From Candidatus Doudnabacteria bacterium (GTDB taxonomy: Bacteria > Patescibacteriota > Doudnabacteria > UBA920): a DNA stretch of 64,000 nt. Both the position numbers and the translations under genes were made by a program. Location: assembly GCA_023245895.1 (NCBI GenBank), contig JAHFJJ010000001.1:7621-71620 (forward strand). The letters are read 5' to 3'. Shown in pieces: positions 36,839 through 44,605 of this stretch (within the stretch, counting starts at the first letter, position 1; each line of letters starts with the position of its first letter). The notes below the pieces were generated by a model, which was not told the origin of the DNA, ran no database searches, and saw nothing but the letters and a program-made list of their open reading frames with translations.

Positions 36839-38257
36839 TTGGAAATACATACGCCGGGACAAATTTTTAGAAACACTCCGTACGATAAATTTATTTTGAA
36901 CCTTTCGTGCAGCCAAGCTAAGCTGGAAAATGACAACAAAGGAGTAGATGTAAAGCGCGGACTTAGAAAGAAAATTGCAGCAGGTATGACCATTGGCTTG
37001 GTACCGGAAGGTTATGTAAATTCCAAATATGCAGCCAGGGGCACAAACGTGGCGTTAAAAGATTCAGAGCGTTTTCCTTTGGTCCGCAAAATGTGGGACT
37101 TAATGCTTACAGGAAATTATACACCGCAACAAATTTTAAAAATTGCAAACAGAGAATGGGGTTATAAAACAATTCAGCGGCACAAAATTGGTGGCAAATC
37201 TTTATCTCGTAGTGCAATCTACCAAATGTTTAAAAATCCATTTTATTATGGTTCTATATTTCTTCGTAAAGCTGACGAAGTACATCCGGGCACTCACGAG
37301 CCAATGGTTACCAAAGAAGAATTTGACCGCGTCCAATTTTTGCTCCGCAGCAAGGGCTTAAAATCCGCGCCTCATACAAAAGAGTTTGCCCATACCGGAC
37401 AAATTGTTTGCCAGGAGTGCGGCTGCCAAATTACAGCAGAAGAAAAAAATAAATTCGTCTGCACCAATTGCAAACAAAAGTTCACCCATTCCTTTAAAGG
37501 TAATAAAGCGGCCTGCCCGTACTGCGGTACTTTAATTGCTAACATGGAAAAGCCAAAAAGCTACCATTATGTTCACTACCGCTGCACCAAACGCAAGAAC
37601 ACTGAAACTTTCCGCTGCTCTCAATCCAGCGTTAGTGAAAAAGACTTGGAAGGCCAGGTTAAAAACTTCCTAGCGACAATAAGCATAAACCCCAAATATC
37701 TGGAATGGGGCCTTAAGCATTTAAACGAAAACAAACCAAAAGAAGCCGTAACAGAGGAGGCTATAGCTCAAAATGCAGAAAAGGCATTAGCCGGCATAGA
37801 GAAAAAACTCGGTGGTTTAATTGATATGCGCGCTGCGGGAGAAATTAGCGAGGAGGAATTTAGCAAACGCAGGCAAGCGGCTCTAAATGAAAAGGAGCTG
37901 ATGGAAACAATTTTAAAAAAGAATAAACGCGATGACAGCCAAGGCACTAACAAAGCAAAAGAAACTTTAACATTTGCCGAGCGCGCCTTAAGAGAATACG
38001 AAAATGGCGACAAAAGAAAGAAACACGAGATATTAAAGACCTTAAGTTCGGAACTAAAGCTAAACAACAAAACACTTCTTATACATGCGCAGAAACCTTC
38101 TATAATTCTAACTCAATCTCTTGTGGCCGTACCTGAAGCAAAAGCAGGGTTAGGAACCGTAGAACCCACTATAAACAAAAGACGAACTGCGTCTTTCGAC
38201 GTCGTTCGTCCTTCGTGGCTCGGGAGCTGGGATTCGAACCCAGAACCAATCGATTAA
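36839..38257 (+). pseudogene. Large serine recombinase lacking the N-terminal catalytic (resolvase) domain: recombinase domain, zinc ribbon and coiled coil only
   Basis: It carries the recombinase-domain motif (YQMFKNPFYYGSI), a CxxC...CxxC zinc beta-ribbon (CQECGC...CTNC...CPYCG) and a coiled-coil tail. No Ser-containing resolvase domain or alpha-E helix appears upstream. Its 3' end runs into tRNA-Asn, the expected att site. Confidence 0.65.
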
Positions 38258-38290
38258 CAGTCGATTGCTCTACCGTTGAGCTACTCCCGA
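38216..38290 (-). tRNA. tRNA-Asn (anticodon GTT), CCA encoded
   Basis: The cloverleaf reads out by hand: acceptor tcgggag/ctcccga, D-arm gctc-aacggta-gagc, anticodon stem atcga/tcgat with loop ctGTTaa, T-arm ctggg-ttcgaat-cccag, discriminator G then CCA. 75 nt. Confidence 0.85.
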
Positions 38291-38526
38291 ATATTTTCGT
38301 CAAGCCATTTGCGGCCTTGACCAGACTTTAAGAATTTTTCTCTTCTTAAGGCCTCGTTTTTTGTCGCAAACATCTCTTGATGGATTAATATCCAAGGCTT
38401 GTTATGTCGAGTAAAGATGTTAGTCCCATTGTTATGTTCGGCAAGGCGCGCTTCCGCAGATTTTGAGCTGGAGCCGACATAGCGTTTGCTATTCCTTTGG
38501 CTTTTTAACACATATACGCGGAACAT
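38281..38526 (-). CDS. GIY-YIG nuclease (COG2827/Slx1-URI-like), free-standing; its last 3 codons overlap the tRNA-Asn 5' end
   Basis: 81 aa. YVLKSQ...RYVGSS...RLAEHNNG...KPWILIHQEMFATKNEALRREKFLKSGQGRKWLDEN. It is a paralog of the domain inserted in the DHFR-like gene. Confidence 0.75.
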   Translation of the reverse strand: MFRVYVLKSQRNSKRYVGSSSKSAEARLAEHNNGTNIFTRHNKPWILIHQEMFATKNEALRREKFLKSGQGRKWLDENIRE

Positions 38527-38538
38527 ATTTTTACAGTC

Positions 38539-38599
38539 TCCGCCGGAGGCGGACCAGCCTCTGGCTGGGATTGCTCTACCGTTGAGCTACTCCCGAATA
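38539..38599. repeat. Palindrome ccgccggaggcggaccagcctctggctgg, followed by a 31-nt duplicate of the tRNA-Asn 5' half
   Basis: 38569-38599 (gattgctctaccgttgagctactcccgaata) is identical to 38263-38293, which covers tRNA nt 1-28 plus 3 flanking nt. The GIY-YIG gene lies between the two copies. Confidence 0.75.
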
Positions 38600-38731: not shown

Positions 38732-39019
38732 TTAAACTGTCTGGCGCAAAGCCCGGACTATGGCTATTAGCACTATGGCGCCCAGTAGCGCGACCAGGAA
38801 GCTGTAAAGGTTAAAACCGCTTATTCCGTTCTGACCAAAGAAGCTCATTAGCCAACCCCCTACTACCGCTCCAATTATCCCGACCACAACATTCATAAAC
38901 GAGCCTTGCTCGGCGTCGGTCTTCATTACGAGCGAAGCCACCCAGCCGACCAGCGCGCCAAAAATAATCCAAAGAATAATTCCCATACCCAGTATATCAA
39001 CTTTCAATTCCAACCGCAT
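38732..39019 (-). CDS. GlsB/YeaQ/YmgE-family stress membrane protein (transglycosylase-associated)
   Basis: 95 aa. ILWIIFGALVGWVASLVM...VVGIIGAVVGGWL is the family pattern. Confidence 0.75.
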   Translation of the reverse strand: MRLELKVDILGMGIILWIIFGALVGWVASLVMKTDAEQGSFMNVVVGIIGAVVGGWLMSFFGQNGISGFNLYSFLVALLGAIVLIAIVRALRQTV

Positions 39020-39632: not shown

Positions 39633-39992
39633 TCAACTAAAAGCTAATTTTTGCTTGGCCTTTTCTACCACCTCACGCAAACTCCAGTTATAAGGCAGGT
39701 GTTCGTCCAGCCCCATGGAGTACTGCGTGAATATTTCTCGGTCCCGGAAGCTGTTGAGGAATAAAGCCGGCAGCTTCCTTGCCCAGCTCTGCCTGCGGAT
39801 TTGATTTACCGCCGGCTGCCCTTCTTCTTCGGCCACATCCACTACCACTAAGTCCGGATGCCGGCTCTGCGCGACTTTTACCGCTGCCTGTCCGCTGGAA
39901 GCGGTTAGCACCTCAAAACCCTCGGTCTTAAATTTTTGTACCCAGGCCTTTTCCAGGCTCGCGGTATCTTCTATTACTAATATTTTTGCCAT
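39633..39992 (-). CDS. Response regulator receiver (CheY-like) domain protein
   Basis: ILVIED near the N-terminus, the phospho-acceptor region DLVVVD, 119 aa. It lies directly downstream of the GGDEF-EAL gene. Confidence 0.65.
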   Translation of the reverse strand: MAKILVIEDTASLEKAWVQKFKTEGFEVLTASSGQAAVKVAQSRHPDLVVVDVAEEEGQPAVNQIRRQSWARKLPALFLNSFRDREIFTQYSMGLDEHLPYNWSLREVVEKAKQKLAFS

Positions 39993-40065
39993 TTTGGCTC
40001 CTTTTTTAATTTTAATTATTTTTTACGCCGGCCTTACGACTTAGCCGGCATCAAAATATTTCTAT

Positions 40066-40150
40066 AAAAACAAAAACCGAACAAACATTTGTCCGGTTTC
40101 GCCATTGGCCTCCCCGCAGCTTTAAGGCGACCATATAATAAGCTGCGGAT
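40066..40150 (-). ncRNA. Conserved structured element, copy A: hairpin with conserved loop ATTATaTGGTCGCCTTA plus palindrome ccgGacaaatgtttgttcgg
   Basis: A second copy sits at 44333-44458. Loop and palindrome are conserved between copies, while the flanking stem differs with compensatory changes (gcagctt/aagctgc against ctgaaagtt/aactttcag). Confidence 0.4.
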
Positions 40151-40167
40151 TTAGGGCTTACAGAATA

Positions 40168-42480
40168 TTAAATTTTTACCGGTTCCTGCGCGGGTTCTTT
40201 TTTCGGCAACAGCTTTTTTGCTTCCAGCCAGCCGGCGACTGCTTCAGGCGCCATAGGCGGGGAAATATAATAGCCCTGCGCCGCGTCGCATCCCAGGCCT
40301 GCCAAAAAATTAAATTGCTGGTCAGTCTCCACGCCTTCGGCAATGACTTTTAAATTCAAGGTGCGGGCCATAGAAACAATGGTGCGCACAATACCCGCGT
40401 CCTGTTCATTTACAATGCACTGCCTGACGAAAGAACGGTCAATTTTAAGGTTATGGATAGGAAAGCGCTTTAAATAACTTAAGGAGGAATAGCCCGTCCC
40501 AAAATCATCTATGCTAATCCTAACGCCCATTTTCTTAAGCTGTTTCAAATTATGGCTTGTGGTTTCCAGGTTGCTCATTGCAACGCTCTCGGTAATCTCT
40601 ACTTCCAGGTTGCCCGCATCCATGGCGGATTCTTGCAAAATACGCGCCAGCTGCTCAAGGAATTCGCTGTCGGCAAAGCTTTGGGCTGAAAGATTAACAG
40701 CCATCCGGAACTGCGGAAAACCCATAGCCTCCCAGTCTATATATTGCCGGCAGGTCGCTTTTAAGGCATATTCGCTAAAGCGTAAAATTAAACCGGTTTC
40801 TTCGGCCAGGGGAATAAATTCCGCCGGCGAAAGTAATCCTTTAACCGGATGCTGCCAGCGGGCCAGGGCTTCCATAGCCATGAGTTTTCCGGTTTTCAAA
40901 TTTACAATCGGCTGGTAATAAAGCGACACTTGATTTTCGGCCAGAGCGCGGCGGAGGTCATTTTCCAAAGCCAGTTTTTCAGAGGCGTGGGTGTCCGAGG
41001 ATGGGTTATAGAGGCTGTAACAGTTGCGGCCTTTTTCCTTGGCGCGGTAGAGGGCCATATCCGCGTGCTTTTTTAGTTCATGAGTATCGTGGCCGTCGTA
41101 AGGGTAAATAGCAATACCAATGCTGACCGAAGGGTGGAATGTATGCGCGCCCAGCTGTACCGGTATGCTACTGGCTTTTAGGATTTTTTCCGCGACCTTT
41201 ACCGCCTCGCCTCCGGAATGTATTTCGTTCAATAAAATTAAAAACTCATCCCCCCCAAAACGCGCAATAGTGTCCTCCGCCCTCAGACAGGACTTAAAAC
41301 GCGTGGCCGCTAATTTTAGCACGGTATCGCCCACCGAATGGCCCAGTGTGTCATTAATGCTTTTAAAGCGGTCCATGTCCAAAAACATTATTGCCATTTT
41401 CCTGTTATGCCGCTTAGCCGCTTCTATGGCTTGTTCAACCCTAATACCGAATTGCTTGCGGTTGGGCAGGCCGGTTAGGGAATCATGGTAGGCCTGGTGT
41501 AAAATGGTCTGTTCTGAAAATTTGCGTTCGGTAATGTCGCGCAGGTTGGCCACAATACTGCCTACGCCGGGATGGTCCATCATGTTAACCAATGTCGCTT
41601 CCAGCCAGCGCACGGAACCGTCGCTATGCCAAAAACGGAACTCAAGCGTTTTGGAGCTTTGGGGGACCTGCAAAATTTCAGTGCTATGGGAACGTAAAAG
41701 CGGCAGGTCTTCTTCTAAAACCAACTCGGTAATTTTTTTGTTAATTAAATCGGCCGATTTGTATCCGGACACCTTTGCGGCCGAAGGAGTCATGTCTAAA
41801 ATTTGCCCCTCGGGAGAAATAAGGGCAATAATGTCATAGCTGTTTTCAACCAGGGCCTGGAAACGGGATTTTTGGTTTTCGGCTTCCAGCCTGGCGGCCT
41901 GTTCGCTGGCCAACAAACGGTATATGGTAATGGCCTGGGCGGCACTATGACCAATTAAAACACAAAGGTCTTTTTCATCATCCGTGAATTCGTGTACGTT
42001 GTTGTAGCAAATGTTGAAAGTGCCGTAATTAGTATTTTTATATGCAATGGGAATTGCCACAAAACCTTTAATGTAGGGCTTGAGCTCAGATACCAGCTTG
42101 TCCCATTGTGTATAATCCGACATATAAATAGGCATTTTGTCGTCAAATGCCTTTTGTGTAATGCCGTCTGTCCTGGGCGGGGTCGGTTCAAAAGGAGTAC
42201 GCGGGTCTTTATAGAGCAGCCTAAATTCTTTTTCAGTACTGTCTTTAAAAAAAGAAAAGCCGTAATTGGCGTTTAAAATATCAACTGTAACGTCAGTAAA
42301 ATTTTGTACGATTTGCCTCTCGTTGGCCGCGCCGACAGATTTAAGGACAGCCTGGTTTAACCTATTAAAATTTTTCTTAATGTTTTCTTGCATAAAGTTA
42401 AAGGAAAGGGGCTTGCTGGAGGAATGGGAAATTCCCCCAGCAAGTGTAGCGTAGGCTATTGGAACACCAACAAACGGCAC
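40168..42480 (-). CDS. GAF/PAS sensor protein with GGDEF and EAL domains (c-di-GMP turnover)
   Basis: RFGGDEF with an upstream LDMDRFKSIND GGDEF core. EAL motifs EALARWQHP and the DDFGTGYSSL region. Central PAS segment. 770 aa. Confidence 0.85.
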   Translation of the reverse strand: MPFVGVPIAYATLAGGISHSSSKPLSFNFMQENIKKNFNRLNQAVLKSVGAANERQIVQNFTDVTVDILNANYGFSFFKDSTEKEFRLLYKDPRTPFEPTPPRTDGITQKAFDDKMPIYMSDYTQWDKLVSELKPYIKGFVAIPIAYKNTNYGTFNICYNNVHEFTDDEKDLCVLIGHSAAQAITIYRLLASEQAARLEAENQKSRFQALVENSYDIIALISPEGQILDMTPSAAKVSGYKSADLINKKITELVLEEDLPLLRSHSTEILQVPQSSKTLEFRFWHSDGSVRWLEATLVNMMDHPGVGSIVANLRDITERKFSEQTILHQAYHDSLTGLPNRKQFGIRVEQAIEAAKRHNRKMAIMFLDMDRFKSINDTLGHSVGDTVLKLAATRFKSCLRAEDTIARFGGDEFLILLNEIHSGGEAVKVAEKILKASSIPVQLGAHTFHPSVSIGIAIYPYDGHDTHELKKHADMALYRAKEKGRNCYSLYNPSSDTHASEKLALENDLRRALAENQVSLYYQPIVNLKTGKLMAMEALARWQHPVKGLLSPAEFIPLAEETGLILRFSEYALKATCRQYIDWEAMGFPQFRMAVNLSAQSFADSEFLEQLARILQESAMDAGNLEVEITESVAMSNLETTSHNLKQLKKMGVRISIDDFGTGYSSLSYLKRFPIHNLKIDRSFVRQCIVNEQDAGIVRTIVSMARTLNLKVIAEGVETDQQFNFLAGLGCDAAQGYYISPPMAPEAVAGWLEAKKLLPKKEPAQEPVKI

Positions 42481-43614: not shown

Positions 43615-43945
43615 AAATCTTCCTTTCTTAAAAATTAATCTTCTGATTACTCAGCGTACAATCAGCGTCCCTGTCATTACCTAGACTTCGCTCGGAGTGA
43701 CGCTGATCCTCCTAAGGCGGACTAATGGGTCAGCGAATAATCAGCGGTCATAAGATTCAAGCGCCTGGATTTTTGAGCCCCGCCAAAAGCAGGAGCTGTG
43801 TAACTGTGCAAGCCCGGTAGAGCAACGTTACAAGCTATTTATTAAAAAACCAAAAAAATATCAAACGTTTTTTAACTACCACAGTAGAATAAAGCAACTA
43901 ATTGTAACGTGATTCTACCGGGCAAGCGCATAAATCCTAAATAAT

Positions 43946-44112
43946 ACTATGGCCCCGCAATAAAGGTTTCCCACCGCAAGCAGCGGGGTATTGGAACCTA
44001 TATTAGCTCCTCGGCTCGCTCGGCTGCAAGCAGCCGGACTCGCTCTACGTCGCTAATAAAGCTAGAAGATTTCCCGCTTTTCCTCCAAGTCCCTCCGAAC
44101 TTGCGGGGCCAT
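43946..44112. ncRNA. Candidate structured RNA of about 165 nt, closed by a 12-bp terminal helix
   Basis: tggccccgcaa at the 5' end pairs with ttgcggggcca at the 3' end. Internal hairpins cccaccgcaagcagcggggt and cggctgcaagcagccg. It sits in a roughly 1 kb non-coding gap with no ORF. Identity unknown. Confidence 0.25.
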
Positions 44113-44133
44113 ATTAACAGTCAAAATTAAGCC

Positions 44134-44230
44134 CTATTCATTATCTTGGCTCATGTCTCCTTGTCCTCGATGGTCAGCCTGGCCAGACTTGCCTTGCTGG
44201 TTACCTGCCTGGTTATTGTAAATCTGCATA
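44134..44230 (-). CDS. Small Gln/Gly-rich protein of 31 aa with a strong RBS, KGG/stress-peptide-like
   Basis: GGAGAGGGG sits 8 nt upstream of the ATG. The product is MQIYNNQAGNQQGKSGQADHRGQGDMSQDNE. Confidence 0.3.
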
Positions 44231-44332
44231 TTTCTCACCCCTCTCCAAATATCTAATTAATTTTACCTAAATAACCTATCCGCTTCGTTTTGTTTTTGCC
44301 CCGGCAAAAGCCCAGGGGTTTTAGGAAGCGAA

Positions 44333-44458
44333 AAAACAAAAAATCCGAACAAATGTTTGTTCGGTTTCGCCATTGGCCTTGGCCGCCTAAATTTTATTGG
44401 CAATAAAATTTTGGTGGCCTAGCTGAAAGTTTAAGGCGACCAGATAATAACTTTCAGG
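44333..44458 (-). ncRNA. Conserved structured element, copy B, with an extra internal hairpin
   Basis: ccgaacaaatgtttgttcggtttcgccattggcc and ctgaaagtt-taaggcgaccagataat-aactttcag. See copy A. Confidence 0.4.
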
Positions 44459-44605
44459 TTACAGGCTAACAATTTATATGAAATTTTTGCTTTCTTTACT
44501 AAAGATACTCCTGTTTAAAAAAAGTGTCAAGCAAGATTTTTGCTTTTTCTTTAGGGGGATTTTTTGTTTATCCACAAAAAATAAGCGCTATGTTTAAATC
44601 GGCTT

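What the first reader, a model, noticed from the sequence alone, without database searches (positions are those of the whole stretch)
40066..40150. Two-copy structured element with compensatory stem changes around a conserved loop
At 40066-40150 and 44333-44458 there is a conserved block ggccaatggcgaaaccg(a/g)acaaa..tttgt(t/c)cgg, containing a 9-bp palindrome. It is followed by a hairpin whose loop ATTAT(A/C)TGGTCGCCTTA is conserved. The stem sequence is entirely different between the copies yet stays complementary (gcagctt/aagctgc against ctgaaagtt/aactttcag). Stem covariation with loop conservation is the signature of a functional RNA or a protein-recognised hairpin, not of a drifting repeat. 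Both copies sit just upstream of small minus-strand genes, the REC-domain gene and a 31 aa stress-peptide-like ORF.
Basis: seen in the sequence. Interest (0 to 1): 0.6.

Follow-up and report, generated by a model that had tools for sequence, protein, structure and literature searches.

The report
Two cyclic-di-GMP class II riboswitches
The two repeated hairpin elements are two copies of a known RNA sensor, the class II cyclic-di-GMP riboswitch. Each is coupled to a transcription terminator, and together they control a small signalling and stress operon in an ultra-small (Patescibacteria-like) bacterium. This is a solid but fairly ordinary find, with one unusual structural twist in the second copy.

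Summary
Both elements read on the minus strand.

- **Copy 1** (40066-40170) matches Rfam c-di-GMP-II-GAG (RF03169) at 44.8 bits, above its threshold of 40. It matches canonical c-di-GMP-II (RF01786) at 41.8 bits, below that threshold of 53.5.
- **Copy 2** (44331-44472) has the same aptamer, interrupted by a unique 39-nt hairpin (44381-44419). Rfam therefore misses it.

- The covarying hairpin is stem P2.
- The conserved loop carries GGUCGCC, which pairs as a pseudoknot with the conserved GGCG-AA-ACC.
- The "palindrome" plus U-run is an intrinsic terminator. Its 5' arm overlaps the pseudoknot and P1 3' strands. Ligand binding should therefore block termination, making an ON switch.

Support from relatives:
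- All P1, P1b and P2 pairs covary across 50 distinct sequences from Patescibacteria, Actinomycetota and Chloroflexia.
- A syntenic metagenome contig has the same two-riboswitch layout.
- The controlled genes are a small peptide, GlsB/YeaQ-type membrane proteins, a GAF-PAS-GGDEF-EAL enzyme and a REC protein.

Both copies keep the canonical AA bulge rather than the G of the GAG/GCG variants, so c-di-GMP is the likely ligand.

Verdict: a new member of a known kind, of moderate to low interest.

The parts
40066..40170 (-). Riboswitch 1, complete: aptamer plus terminator. It starts at the stop codon of the GGDEF-EAL gene (40168-40170) and lies 74 nt upstream of the REC gene start (39992).
   Evidence: Rfam RF03169 hit at 40082-40170, 44.8 bits against a threshold of 40. 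RF01786 scores 41.8 bits. Model R1 scores 122.3 bits.
40140..40149 (-). Copy 1, P2 5' arm (UCCGCAGCUU). It pairs with 40113-40122 (AAGCUGCGGG).
   Evidence: Sequence, MFE fold, covariation.
40123..40139 (-). Copy 1, P2 loop AUUAUAUGGUCGCCUUA. GGUCGCC (40126-40132) is the 5' strand of the pseudoknot.
   Evidence: It aligns to the conserved loop of both Rfam consensus sequences.
40095..40103 (-). Copy 1, pseudoknot 3' strand GGCG-A-AA-CC. The bulged AA is at 40097-40098 and is followed by G40094.
   Evidence: It is complementary to the loop. Comparison of the Rfam consensus lines shows compensatory differences between the families. L004:1070-1191 carries a U-A to A-U swap.
40155..40157 (-). Copy 1, P1b 5' strand GCC. 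It pairs with GGC at 40108-40110. P1 is UGU (40160-40162) with ACA (40090-40092).
   Evidence: MFE fold. L019 has ACC/GGU at this position.
40066..40100 (-). Copy 1, intrinsic terminator: stem GAAACCGGACAA/UUGUUCGGUUUU followed by UGUUUUU. Its 5' arm (40089-40100) overlaps the pseudoknot 3' strand and the P1 3' strand.
   Evidence: Terminator scan. Hairpin energy -14.2 kcal/mol, z -3.47.
44331..44472 (-). Riboswitch 2, complete: aptamer with an extra hairpin, plus terminator. It lies about 100 nt upstream of the 31-aa peptide gene (ATG at 44229).
   Evidence: Model R1 scores 111.7 bits, with the insert treated as an insertion. Rfam finds only fragments, 16.9 and 13.3 bits.
44449..44457 (-). 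Copy 2, P2 5' arm CUGAAAGUU. It pairs with 44423-44431 (AACUUUCAG). The loop is 44432-44448 and contains GGUCGCC at 44435-44441.
44381..44419 (-). Copy 2, extra hairpin GGCCACCAAAAUUUUAUUG-C-CAAUAAAAUUUAGGCGGCC. It is inserted between the P2 3' arm and the P1b 3' strand, and turns the kink-turn position into a three-way junction.
   Evidence: Inverted repeat I4. The fold is -19 kcal/mol. The insert is unique in the window and in all loci. L097 and L022 carry unrelated hairpins at the same site.
44363..44371 (-). Copy 2, pseudoknot 3' strand GGCGAAACC, with the bulged AA at 44365-44366. P1b is GCC (44464-44466) with GGC (44376-44378). P1 is UUGUU (44468-44472) with AACAA (44357-44361).
44331..44364 (-). 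Copy 2, intrinsic terminator: CCGAACAA-ACAU-UUGUUCGG followed by AUUUUUUGUUUUUU. Its 5' arm overlaps the CC of the pseudoknot and the whole P1 3' strand.
   Evidence: Terminator scan. Energy -10.2 kcal/mol.
44502..44530 (-). Promoter-like site TTGACA-17-TATCTT, about 25 nt upstream of copy 2. No such site lies upstream of copy 1.
   Evidence: Consensus scan, 10 of 12 matches. Relatives L071, L083, L096 and L097 have TTGACA/TTGACG plus a -10-like hexamer at the same distance.
44134..44229 (-). First gene under copy 2: the 31-aa peptide MQIYNNQAGNQQGKSGQADHRGQGDMSQDNE.
   Evidence: ORF list. The syntenic contig L080 has a 42-aa peptide with the same IYNN motif in the same place.
40168..42480 (-). 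GAF-PAS-GGDEF-EAL protein (770 aa). It is the last gene of the unit under copy 2 and sits directly upstream of copy 1.
   Evidence: Pfam: EAL 1.3e-81, GGDEF 1.8e-52, PAS, GAF_2. The GGDEF, RxxD, EAL and DDFGTGYSS motifs are visible in the translation.
39633..39992 (-). REC-only protein (119 aa), the first gene under copy 1. It is followed by 47-aa and 67-aa ORFs and a Transgly_assoc (GlsB/YeaQ/YmgE) gene at 38732-39019.
   Evidence: Pfam Response_reg 5.6e-10 and Transgly_assoc 8.6e-15.

Best explanation
Both elements are class II cyclic-di-GMP riboswitches, transcribed from the minus strand.

**Anatomy.** Each has an aptamer made of P1, P1b, P2 and a pseudoknot. In the pseudoknot, the P2 loop GGUCGCC pairs with GGCG-A...CC downstream, leaving two bulged adenines. 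Directly after the aptamer comes an intrinsic terminator.

**Mechanism.** The 5' arm of the terminator uses the same nucleotides as the 3' strands of the pseudoknot and P1.
- Without ligand, the terminator forms and transcription stops.
- With c-di-GMP bound, the pseudoknot and P1 hold those nucleotides and transcription reads through. This is an ON switch.

**Genes controlled.**
- Copy 2 has its own promoter. It gates a unit encoding a 31-aa peptide, a GlsB-like membrane protein, a methyltransferase-like protein and a GAF-PAS-GGDEF-EAL enzyme. The second messenger thus regulates an enzyme that makes and/or breaks it, which is a feedback loop.
- Copy 1 starts at the stop codon of that enzyme gene and has no recognisable promoter. 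It most likely acts as a second, intercistronic checkpoint gating the REC protein, two small proteins and a GlsB/YeaQ/YmgE protein. Those distal genes would then need read-through of two c-di-GMP-dependent terminators.
- Copy 2 carries an extra hairpin where canonical members have a kink-turn, giving a three-way junction.

**Shown:** family membership by score and architecture; covariation of P1, P1b and P2; overlap between terminator and aptamer; synteny.

**Inferred:** ligand identity; the ON direction; read-through from the upstream gene into copy 1; that copy 2 still binds ligand.
For: - **Rfam scores.** RF03169 scores 44.8 bits against a threshold of 40, E 1.6e-05. RF01786 scores 41.8 bits, E 5.2e-08 on the short stretch.
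- **Folding.** Unconstrained MFE folding recovers P2, P1b and the terminator in both copies, and the extra hairpin as a separate branch in copy 2.
- **Terminators.** Both are found by the consensus scan.
- **Covariation, close relatives.** In 9 close relatives, 87.6% of cells are paired, against 25-43% when partners are slid. 7 of 10 P2 pairs carry double changes.
- **Covariation, wide set.** In 50 distinct sequences, 89.1% are paired against 28-39% when slid. All 19 P1, P1b and P2 pairs carry double changes, and 0 of 500 shuffles reach the observed score.
- **Pseudoknot.** The three Rfam consensus lines differ by compensatory changes: GGGCAC/GUGC..CC against GGuCGCC/GGCGA..CC. L004:1070-1191 has GGACGCC/GGCGUAACC.
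- **Binding-site bulge.** The window has GGCGA-AA-CCG, like the canonical GUGC-AA-CCG. The GAG and GCG consensus sequences have GA and GC at these two positions.
- **Relative that passes canonical.** L013, with the same loop and pseudoknot strands, passes the canonical RF01786 threshold at 64.4 bits.
- **Gene context.** A GGDEF-EAL gene and a REC gene are under control. The same genes lie downstream of the riboswitch in relatives L019, L036, L080, L091 and L034.
- **Synteny.** Metagenome contig L080 repeats the whole layout, including the second riboswitch 2 nt after the GGDEF-EAL stop codon.
- **Precedent.** Ligand-bound c-di-GMP-II riboswitches are described as ON switches (PMC7583470).
Against: - No experiment and no transcript data exist for this organism.
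- Copy 1 fails the canonical RF01786 threshold (41.8 against 53.5). It passes only the variant model, whose defining G it lacks.
- Copy 2 fails every Rfam threshold.
- P1 is very short in copy 1 (UGU/ACA, 3 pairs). In the close subfamily it does not vary, so it is untested there.
- The kink-turn consensus (UGA ... GGA) is degenerate in this subfamily.
- The A-U pair that contacts one guanine of the ligand in the crystal structure (PMC7583470) may be the pair that is G-C here. This mapping is my own and is unverified.
- Pseudoknot invariance in my alignments is largely due to the search patterns used.
- Absence of a promoter before copy 1 rests on a simple sigma-70 consensus scan.
Confidence: 0.8

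Rival explanations
1. They are riboswitches of the c-di-GMP-II fold but with altered specificity, as proposed for the GAG/GCG variant families. They would sense another ligand (another cyclic dinucleotide, a linear dinucleotide such as pGpG, or something unrelated) rather than c-di-GMP.
For: - The best-scoring Rfam family is the variant RF03169, not the canonical one.
- The pseudoknot helix has G-C where the canonical has A-U, and U-A where the canonical has G-C.
- The third-strand triplet is AAU instead of AGU.
- The kink-turn is degenerate.
Against: - Both bulged positions are AA, as in the canonical consensus. The G that distinguishes the GAG and GCG consensus sequences is absent.
- L013, with identical loop and pseudoknot strands, passes the canonical model at 64.4 bits.
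- The regulated genes include a GGDEF-EAL enzyme in several lineages.
Confidence: 0.12
2. Copy 2 is a decayed riboswitch. The 39-nt hairpin insertion has broken the aptamer, leaving only a constitutive terminator or leader.
For: - Rfam models do not recognise copy 2.
- The insert is unique to this genome.
- It is flanked by a short direct repeat (AGGCCA), as an insertion event would leave.
- The syntenic copy in L080 has no insert.
Against: - Every aptamer element apart from the insert is intact. P2 carries compensatory rather than disruptive changes.
- The insert folds on itself as an independent branch and leaves P1b free to pair.
- Two other sequences (L097 and L022) carry unrelated hairpins of 5-6 bp at exactly this site, so the site tolerates a helix.
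- P1 is better in copy 2 (5 bp) than in copy 1.
Confidence: 0.15
3. It is not a ligand sensor at all. It would be a repeated intergenic element (REP/MITE-like), a protein-binding hairpin, or a small RNA that happens to carry a terminator.
For: There are two copies in one window with a palindrome, and the insert is flanked by a short direct repeat.
Against: - Copy 1 passes the Rfam threshold, with full-length alignment to an 86-position structured model.
- Covariation is found in three helices across three phyla.
- The orientation upstream of genes is fixed and conserved in relatives.
- The window holds no further copies.
Confidence: 0.03

Closest known systems
c-di-GMP-II riboswitch (Rfam RF01786; Lee et al. 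2010; crystal structure PDB 3Q3Z)
   Same: - P1-P1b-P2 architecture with a pseudoknot between the P2 loop and the 3' tail.
- Loop pattern AU.UGG.
- Two bulged adenines followed by CCG.
- Intrinsic terminator as the expression platform, with ON logic.
- Association with c-di-GMP turnover genes.
   Different: - The score is below the gathering threshold (41.8 against 53.5).
- The pseudoknot helix is GGUCGCC/GGCGA instead of GGGCAC/GUGC.
- The triplet before the pseudoknot strand is AAU, not AGU.
- The kink-turn consensus is degenerate, and in copy 2 it is replaced by a three-way junction.
- P1 is very short.
- The host is a Patescibacteria-like genome rather than Firmicutes.
   Same: - It is the best-scoring family for copy 1 (44.8 bits against a threshold of 40).
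- It has the same pseudoknot helix sequence, GGuCGCC/GGCGA.
   Different: - The model consensus has G at the first bulged position (GGCGA-GA-CCG). Both window copies have A (GGCGA-AA-CCG).
- The feature that appears to give the variant its name is therefore absent.
Tandem riboswitches giving a sharper response (PMC9481103: 59 doublets and 9 triplets of c-di-GMP-II)
   Same: Two aptamers of the same class, each with its own terminator, lie in one transcription direction. Distal genes would need both to read through.
   Different: Here the two are 4.3 kb apart, with four genes between them, one of which is a GGDEF-EAL enzyme. They do not sit side by side in a single leader.

Membership tests
c-di-GMP-II riboswitch, canonical (RF01786) | Covariance-model score at or above the curated gathering score (53.5 bits) | tested here: not met
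   Copy 1 scores 41.8 bits. Copy 2 gives a 13.3-bit fragment. The relative L013, with the same loop and pseudoknot strands, reaches 64.4 bits.
c-di-GMP-II riboswitch, canonical (RF01786) | P1, P1b and P2 helices in the family's order, supported by covariation | tested here: met
   Full-length alignment to the model. MFE folds. All 19 pairs covary in 50 sequences.
c-di-GMP-II riboswitch, canonical (RF01786) | Pseudoknot between the P2 loop and the 3' tail | tested here: met
   GGUCGCC is complementary to GGCGA..CC in both copies. Compensatory differences separate the Rfam consensus sequences. One U-A to A-U swap occurs in L004:1070-1191. Invariance elsewhere is due to ascertainment.
c-di-GMP-II riboswitch, canonical (RF01786) | Two bulged adenines in the pseudoknot 3' strand followed by CCG (from memory, ligand-contacting A69, A70 and G73 of PDB 3Q3Z) | tested here: met
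   The window has GGCGA-AA-CCG at 40094-40103 and 44362-44371. The canonical consensus is GUGC-AA-CCG. The residue numbering is recalled, not checked.
c-di-GMP-II riboswitch, canonical (RF01786) | Kink-turn between P1b and P2 (consensus UGA ... GGA) | tested here: not met
   Copy 1 has AAA ... GGA. Copy 2 has UAA ... CUA plus the inserted hairpin. Close relatives vary at these positions. PMC11260495 confirms that the crystal structure contains a kink-turn.
c-di-GMP-II riboswitch, canonical (RF01786) | Binds c-di-GMP and changes gene expression | not testable with these tools
   This needs binding and transcription assays. Only gene context (GGDEF-EAL, REC) speaks for it.
c-di-GMP-II-GAG variant (RF03169) | Covariance-model score at or above the gathering score (40 bits) | tested here: met
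   Copy 1 scores 44.8 bits. Copy 2 does not pass, at 16.9 bits for a fragment.
c-di-GMP-II-GAG variant (RF03169) | G instead of A at the first bulged position of the pseudoknot 3' strand (consensus UGGCGAGACCG) | tested here: not met
   Both copies read UGGCGAAACCG. The comparison with the GCG consensus UGGCGAGCCCG shows which positions carry the variant signature. That reading of the family name is my inference.
Rho-independent (intrinsic) terminator as expression platform | GC-containing hairpin followed by a U-run, overlapping the aptamer 3' strands | tested here: met
   One search finds stems at 40100-40073 and 44364-44345, each followed by T-runs. Energies are -14.2 and -10.2 kcal/mol. 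The overlap is read from the coordinates.

The most novel reading that the evidence does not exclude
These copies represent a Patescibacteria-centred structural subclass of the c-di-GMP-II riboswitch that current Rfam thresholds mostly miss.

- L019, L036, L083, L097, L022, L021, L023, L047 and window copy 2 all went undetected.
- In this subclass the kink-turn is replaced by a plain internal loop or by an optional third helix, giving a three-way junction.
- The subclass is deployed twice within one operon. This builds an autoregulatory c-di-GMP circuit (sensor, then GGDEF-EAL enzyme, then a second sensor, then a REC protein) in a bacterium with a reduced genome.

If true, c-di-GMP signalling and RNA-based sensing would be a conserved regulatory layer in this little-studied group.
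Probability: 0.45. Interest if true: 0.45.

Novelty: new member of a known kind. Interest (0 to 1): 0.3.

Why it matters
- **Regulatory annotation.** It gives a concrete annotation for an operon in an uncultivated, reduced-genome lineage: c-di-GMP would switch on a GGDEF-EAL enzyme, a REC protein and several GlsB/YeaQ-type stress membrane proteins. I found no paper in the searchable library linking Patescibacteria, c-di-GMP and riboswitches.
- **Caution on labels.** The family label returned by a routine Rfam scan (the GAG variant) is probably misleading about ligand specificity.
- **Detection gap.** A hairpin inserted at the kink-turn position hides real family members from standard models.
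- **Limits.** For riboswitch specialists this is an expected kind of find, not a new principle.

Tried and rejected
- **Rfam on copy 2.** In permissive mode it found only fragments. The cause is the 39-nt insert, not lack of homology.
- **The defining papers.** I tried to read the variant-defining paper (Weinberg 2017), the structure paper (Smith 2011) and the discovery paper (Lee 2010). None is held. The meaning of 'GAG' was therefore inferred from the three consensus lines.
- **Literature search by residue.** A search for A69/A70 returned noise.
- **Mobile repeat.** I considered that the copy-2 insert is a mobile repeat. It has no other copy in the window or in 99 loci.
- **More copies in the window.** I looked and found none.
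- **Allosteric ribozyme.** I considered a group I ribozyme or other known RNA in the 480-nt gap downstream of the peptide gene, as in the C. difficile allosteric ribozyme. Rfam gives no credible hit.
- **Strain variation.** I looked in identical-protein contigs (L100, L101). The riboswitch is 100% identical there, so this is uninformative.
- **Chance matches in the genome scan.** About half of the 68 matches are chance hits inside coding regions. These were set aside by the P2 test and by the model search.

Full report
**Observation.** The two regions were read directly. Both contain the conserved block, the palindrome and the hairpin with a conserved loop. The repeat finder returns them as two direct-repeat families: D1 (40106-40162 / 44415-44471) and D2 (40066-40111 / 44334-44379). 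It also finds a 22-nt inverted repeat at 44378-44422 that exists only in the second copy. The 17-mer GGCCAATGGCGAAACCG occurs exactly twice in the window, and the loop motif occurs exactly only at these two sites.
- The informative strand is minus.
- The stems share 5 of 9 positions and differ by 4 double compensatory changes, so they are not entirely different.
- Copy 2 carries a 39-nt hairpin insertion.

**Identification.** A whole-window Rfam scan at gathering thresholds gives one non-tRNA hit. It is 40082-40170 on the minus strand, family RF03169 (c-di-GMP-II-GAG riboswitch aptamer), 44.8 bits against a threshold of 40, E 1.6e-05, aligned over the full model. On the short stretch, the canonical c-di-GMP-II model RF01786 scores 41.8 bits, below its threshold of 53.5. 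Copy 2 gives only fragments of 16.9 and 13.3 bits.

- The covarying hairpin is P2.
- The conserved loop AU.UGGUCGCCUU matches the conserved loop of the family.
- The conserved block GGCCAAUGGCGAAACCG is the P1b 3' strand, the joining strand and the 3' strand of the pseudoknot.
- The palindrome CCGGACAAA/UUUGUUCGG followed by UUUUUGUUUUU is an intrinsic terminator. The consensus scan also finds it for both copies.

**Strand.** In copy 1 the terminator stem has a G.U wobble and P2 closes with U.G. On the plus strand both would be C.A mismatches. The U-runs follow the stems only on the minus strand. The downstream genes are also on the minus strand.

**Folding.** Unconstrained MFE folding of both leaders recovers P2, the 3-bp P1b (GCC/GGC) and the terminator. 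In copy 2 the inserted sequence folds as a separate branch, so P1b, P2 and the new helix meet in a three-way junction (z-scores -3.4 and -4.1).

**Relatives.** A scan of one genome per species with a loop-gap-pseudoknot pattern gave 68 loci. About half are chance matches inside genes. The rest have a P2 stem of 7-12 bp of unrelated sequence flanking the loop. They come from three groups:
- Patescibacteria: Dojkabacteria, Peribacteria, Saccharibacteria, and an unclassified 'Patescibacteria group bacterium CTOTU25981'.
- Actinomycetota, mostly Acidimicrobiales.
- Chloroflexia.

The window shares 66-77% nucleotide identity with contigs of CTOTU25981 over the GGDEF-EAL, GlsB and a cell-wall hydrolase gene. 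The host is therefore most likely a related Patescibacterium; this is an inference. A metagenome scan added close relatives.

**Covariation.**
- In an alignment of the 9 closest sequences (A2), 87.6% of cells pair, against 25-43% when the partners are slid. 7 of 10 P2 pairs and 2 of 4 P1b pairs carry changes on both sides.
- P1 (UGU/ACA) and the pseudoknot are invariant in that set, so they are untested there.
- A covariance model built from A2 finds only the two known sites in the window. These score 122.3 and 111.7 bits, by construction; the next hit scores 16.7 bits.
- The same model finds 52 sites in the fetched loci.
- On that alignment, with the pseudoknot added, 89.1% of cells pair against 28-39% when slid. 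All 19 P1, P1b and P2 pairs carry double changes, and no shuffle reaches the observed values.
- The alignment is fitted to the model, so it leans towards the structure. The size of the effect, and the P2 test that is independent of any model, make the conclusion safe.
- Pseudoknot invariance is due to my search patterns. One hit found by the model rather than by the pattern has GGACGCC/GGCGUAACC, a U-A to A-U swap at the pair next to the bulge.

**Which subclass, which ligand.** The three Rfam consensus lines read as follows at the pseudoknot 3' strand:

| Family | Consensus |
|---|---|
| Canonical (RF01786) | gGUGC-AA-CCG |
| GAG (RF03169) | GGCGA-GA-CCG |
| GCG (RF03170) | GGCGA-GC-CCG |
| Window, both copies | GGCGA-AA-CCG |

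The two variant families differ from the canonical family, and from each other, at the two bulged positions. Both window copies have the canonical AA, combined with the helix sequence typical of the GAG seed. This explains why the GAG model scores higher although its distinguishing G is absent.

From memory, these bulged adenines are the ligand-contacting A69 and A70 of PDB 3Q3Z. I could not read the structure paper or the variant paper, so this mapping is inference. A review confirms that the ligand sits in a triple helix, that one guanine forms a triple with an A-U pair, and that ligand-bound c-di-GMP-II switches are ON switches (PMC7583470).

L013, which has the same loop and pseudoknot strands as the window, passes the canonical threshold at 64.4 bits. 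Most of the closest relatives pass no threshold at all. I therefore assign the elements to the c-di-GMP-II class with c-di-GMP as the probable ligand, and I treat altered specificity as a live but minor rival.

**Mechanism.**
- In copy 1, the terminator 5' arm (40089-40100) overlaps the pseudoknot 3' strand (40095-40103) and the P1 3' strand (40090-40092).
- In copy 2, the terminator 5' arm (44357-44364) overlaps the CC of the pseudoknot and the whole P1 3' strand (44357-44361).
- Aptamer and terminator are therefore mutually exclusive, and ligand binding should prevent termination.
- This ON logic is inferred from the anatomy. It agrees with what is described for the class.

**Genes.** Pfam identifies a Response_reg protein downstream of copy 1. 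Between the copies it identifies a GAF-PAS-GGDEF-EAL protein with intact GGDEF, RxxD, EAL and DDFGTGYSS motifs, a weak methyltransferase match and a Transgly_assoc (GlsB/YeaQ/YmgE) protein. A second Transgly_assoc protein lies at the end of the cluster.

- Copy 2 is preceded by a promoter-like TTGACA-17-TATCTT. Relatives have similar hexamers at the same distance.
- Copy 1 begins at the stop codon of the GGDEF-EAL gene, with no promoter-like site upstream.
- Metagenome contig L080 shows the same order: riboswitch, a small N/Q/D-rich peptide sharing an IYNN motif, a GlsB-like gene, a 282-aa protein, GAF-PAS-GGDEF-EAL, then a second riboswitch 2 nt after the stop codon.
- In CTOTU25981 the two riboswitches are at separate loci. 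One precedes GlsB-like, a 295-aa protein and GGDEF-EAL. The other precedes GlsB-like, an 80-aa protein and REC.
- A script comparing downstream ORFs confirms that GlsB-type, REC and GGDEF-EAL genes recur.

The simplest reading is a c-di-GMP-activated operon with feedback on a c-di-GMP enzyme. Copy 1 would be an intercistronic second gate, so the distal genes respond more steeply. This resembles tandem riboswitches (PMC9481103), but with genes in between.

**The insert in copy 2.** The insert is unique and is flanked by AGGCCA on both sides. L097 (hairpin GUACG...CGUAC) and L022 (GUAAUA...UAUUAC) carry unrelated hairpins at exactly the same site, between the P2 3' arm and the P1b 3' strand. This is where canonical members have a kink-turn (PMC11260495). 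In the close subfamily the kink-turn consensus is degenerate. I therefore regard the site as permissive for an optional helix and copy 2 as probably functional. This is not shown.

**Novelty.** The class is known, and a routine Rfam scan labels copy 1. Three things are new:
- the host group; no paper in the library combines Patescibacteria, c-di-GMP and riboswitch;
- the mislabelling issue with the GAG model;
- the three-way-junction form that escapes detection.

I file this as a new member of a known kind, with an interest of about 0.3.

Noticed in passing
window 43640-44135 (minus strand): About 480 nt without a credible ORF lies between the 31-aa peptide gene and the GlsB-like gene, inside the unit controlled by copy 2. 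It folds strongly (MFE -172.7 kcal/mol, z -3.56) with long-range inverted repeats (43945-43960 / 44101-44116 and 43805-43833 / 43902-43930). It has no credible Rfam match, is absent from the syntenic contig L080, and is not repeated elsewhere. It may be an unknown structured RNA or an inserted element.
   Followed up: partly
window 36839-38599: tRNA-Asn lies at 38216-38290 (minus). An exact 31-nt copy of its 5' part sits at 38569-38599. The two flank an 81-aa ORF (38281-38526). Next to them is a 472-aa ORF (36839-38257, plus strand), which carries the Recombinase Pfam domain in an identical metagenome contig. This looks like the edge of an element integrated at a tRNA gene.
   Followed up: partly
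window 40030-40052 and 44288-44341 (minus strand): Both leaders contain a further GC-rich hairpin between the terminator and the ribosome-binding site: GCCGGC...GCCGGC in copy 1, and CCCCUGGGC...GCCGGGG within a longer imperfect inverted repeat in copy 2. Neither is followed by a U-run. Their role is unknown.
   Followed up: no
L041 4864-5181 and 7372-7642; L060 6844-7255; L067 1373-1787: Chloroflexia genomes carry two to three riboswitches of this clan in tandem, about 140 nt apart. Each has an extra small hairpin inside the P2 loop, after the pseudoknot strand.
   Followed up: no
window 39633-39992 (REC protein): The REC-only protein keeps the acidic pocket and the phospho-acceptor Asp, but reads DVAEEEG where receivers usually have D-x-x-M-P-x-x-D-G. 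It also lacks an obvious conserved Lys-Pro near the C-terminus, as does its homologue in L019. It may be an atypical or pseudo-receiver (read by eye).
   Followed up: no
L005 3685-4702: An Acidimicrobiales contig has three clan members within 1 kb. Two are labelled GAG although they read GGCGAAACC. One is labelled GCG although it reads GGCGAACCC. Rfam's variant labels therefore do not track the signature nucleotides.
   Followed up: partly
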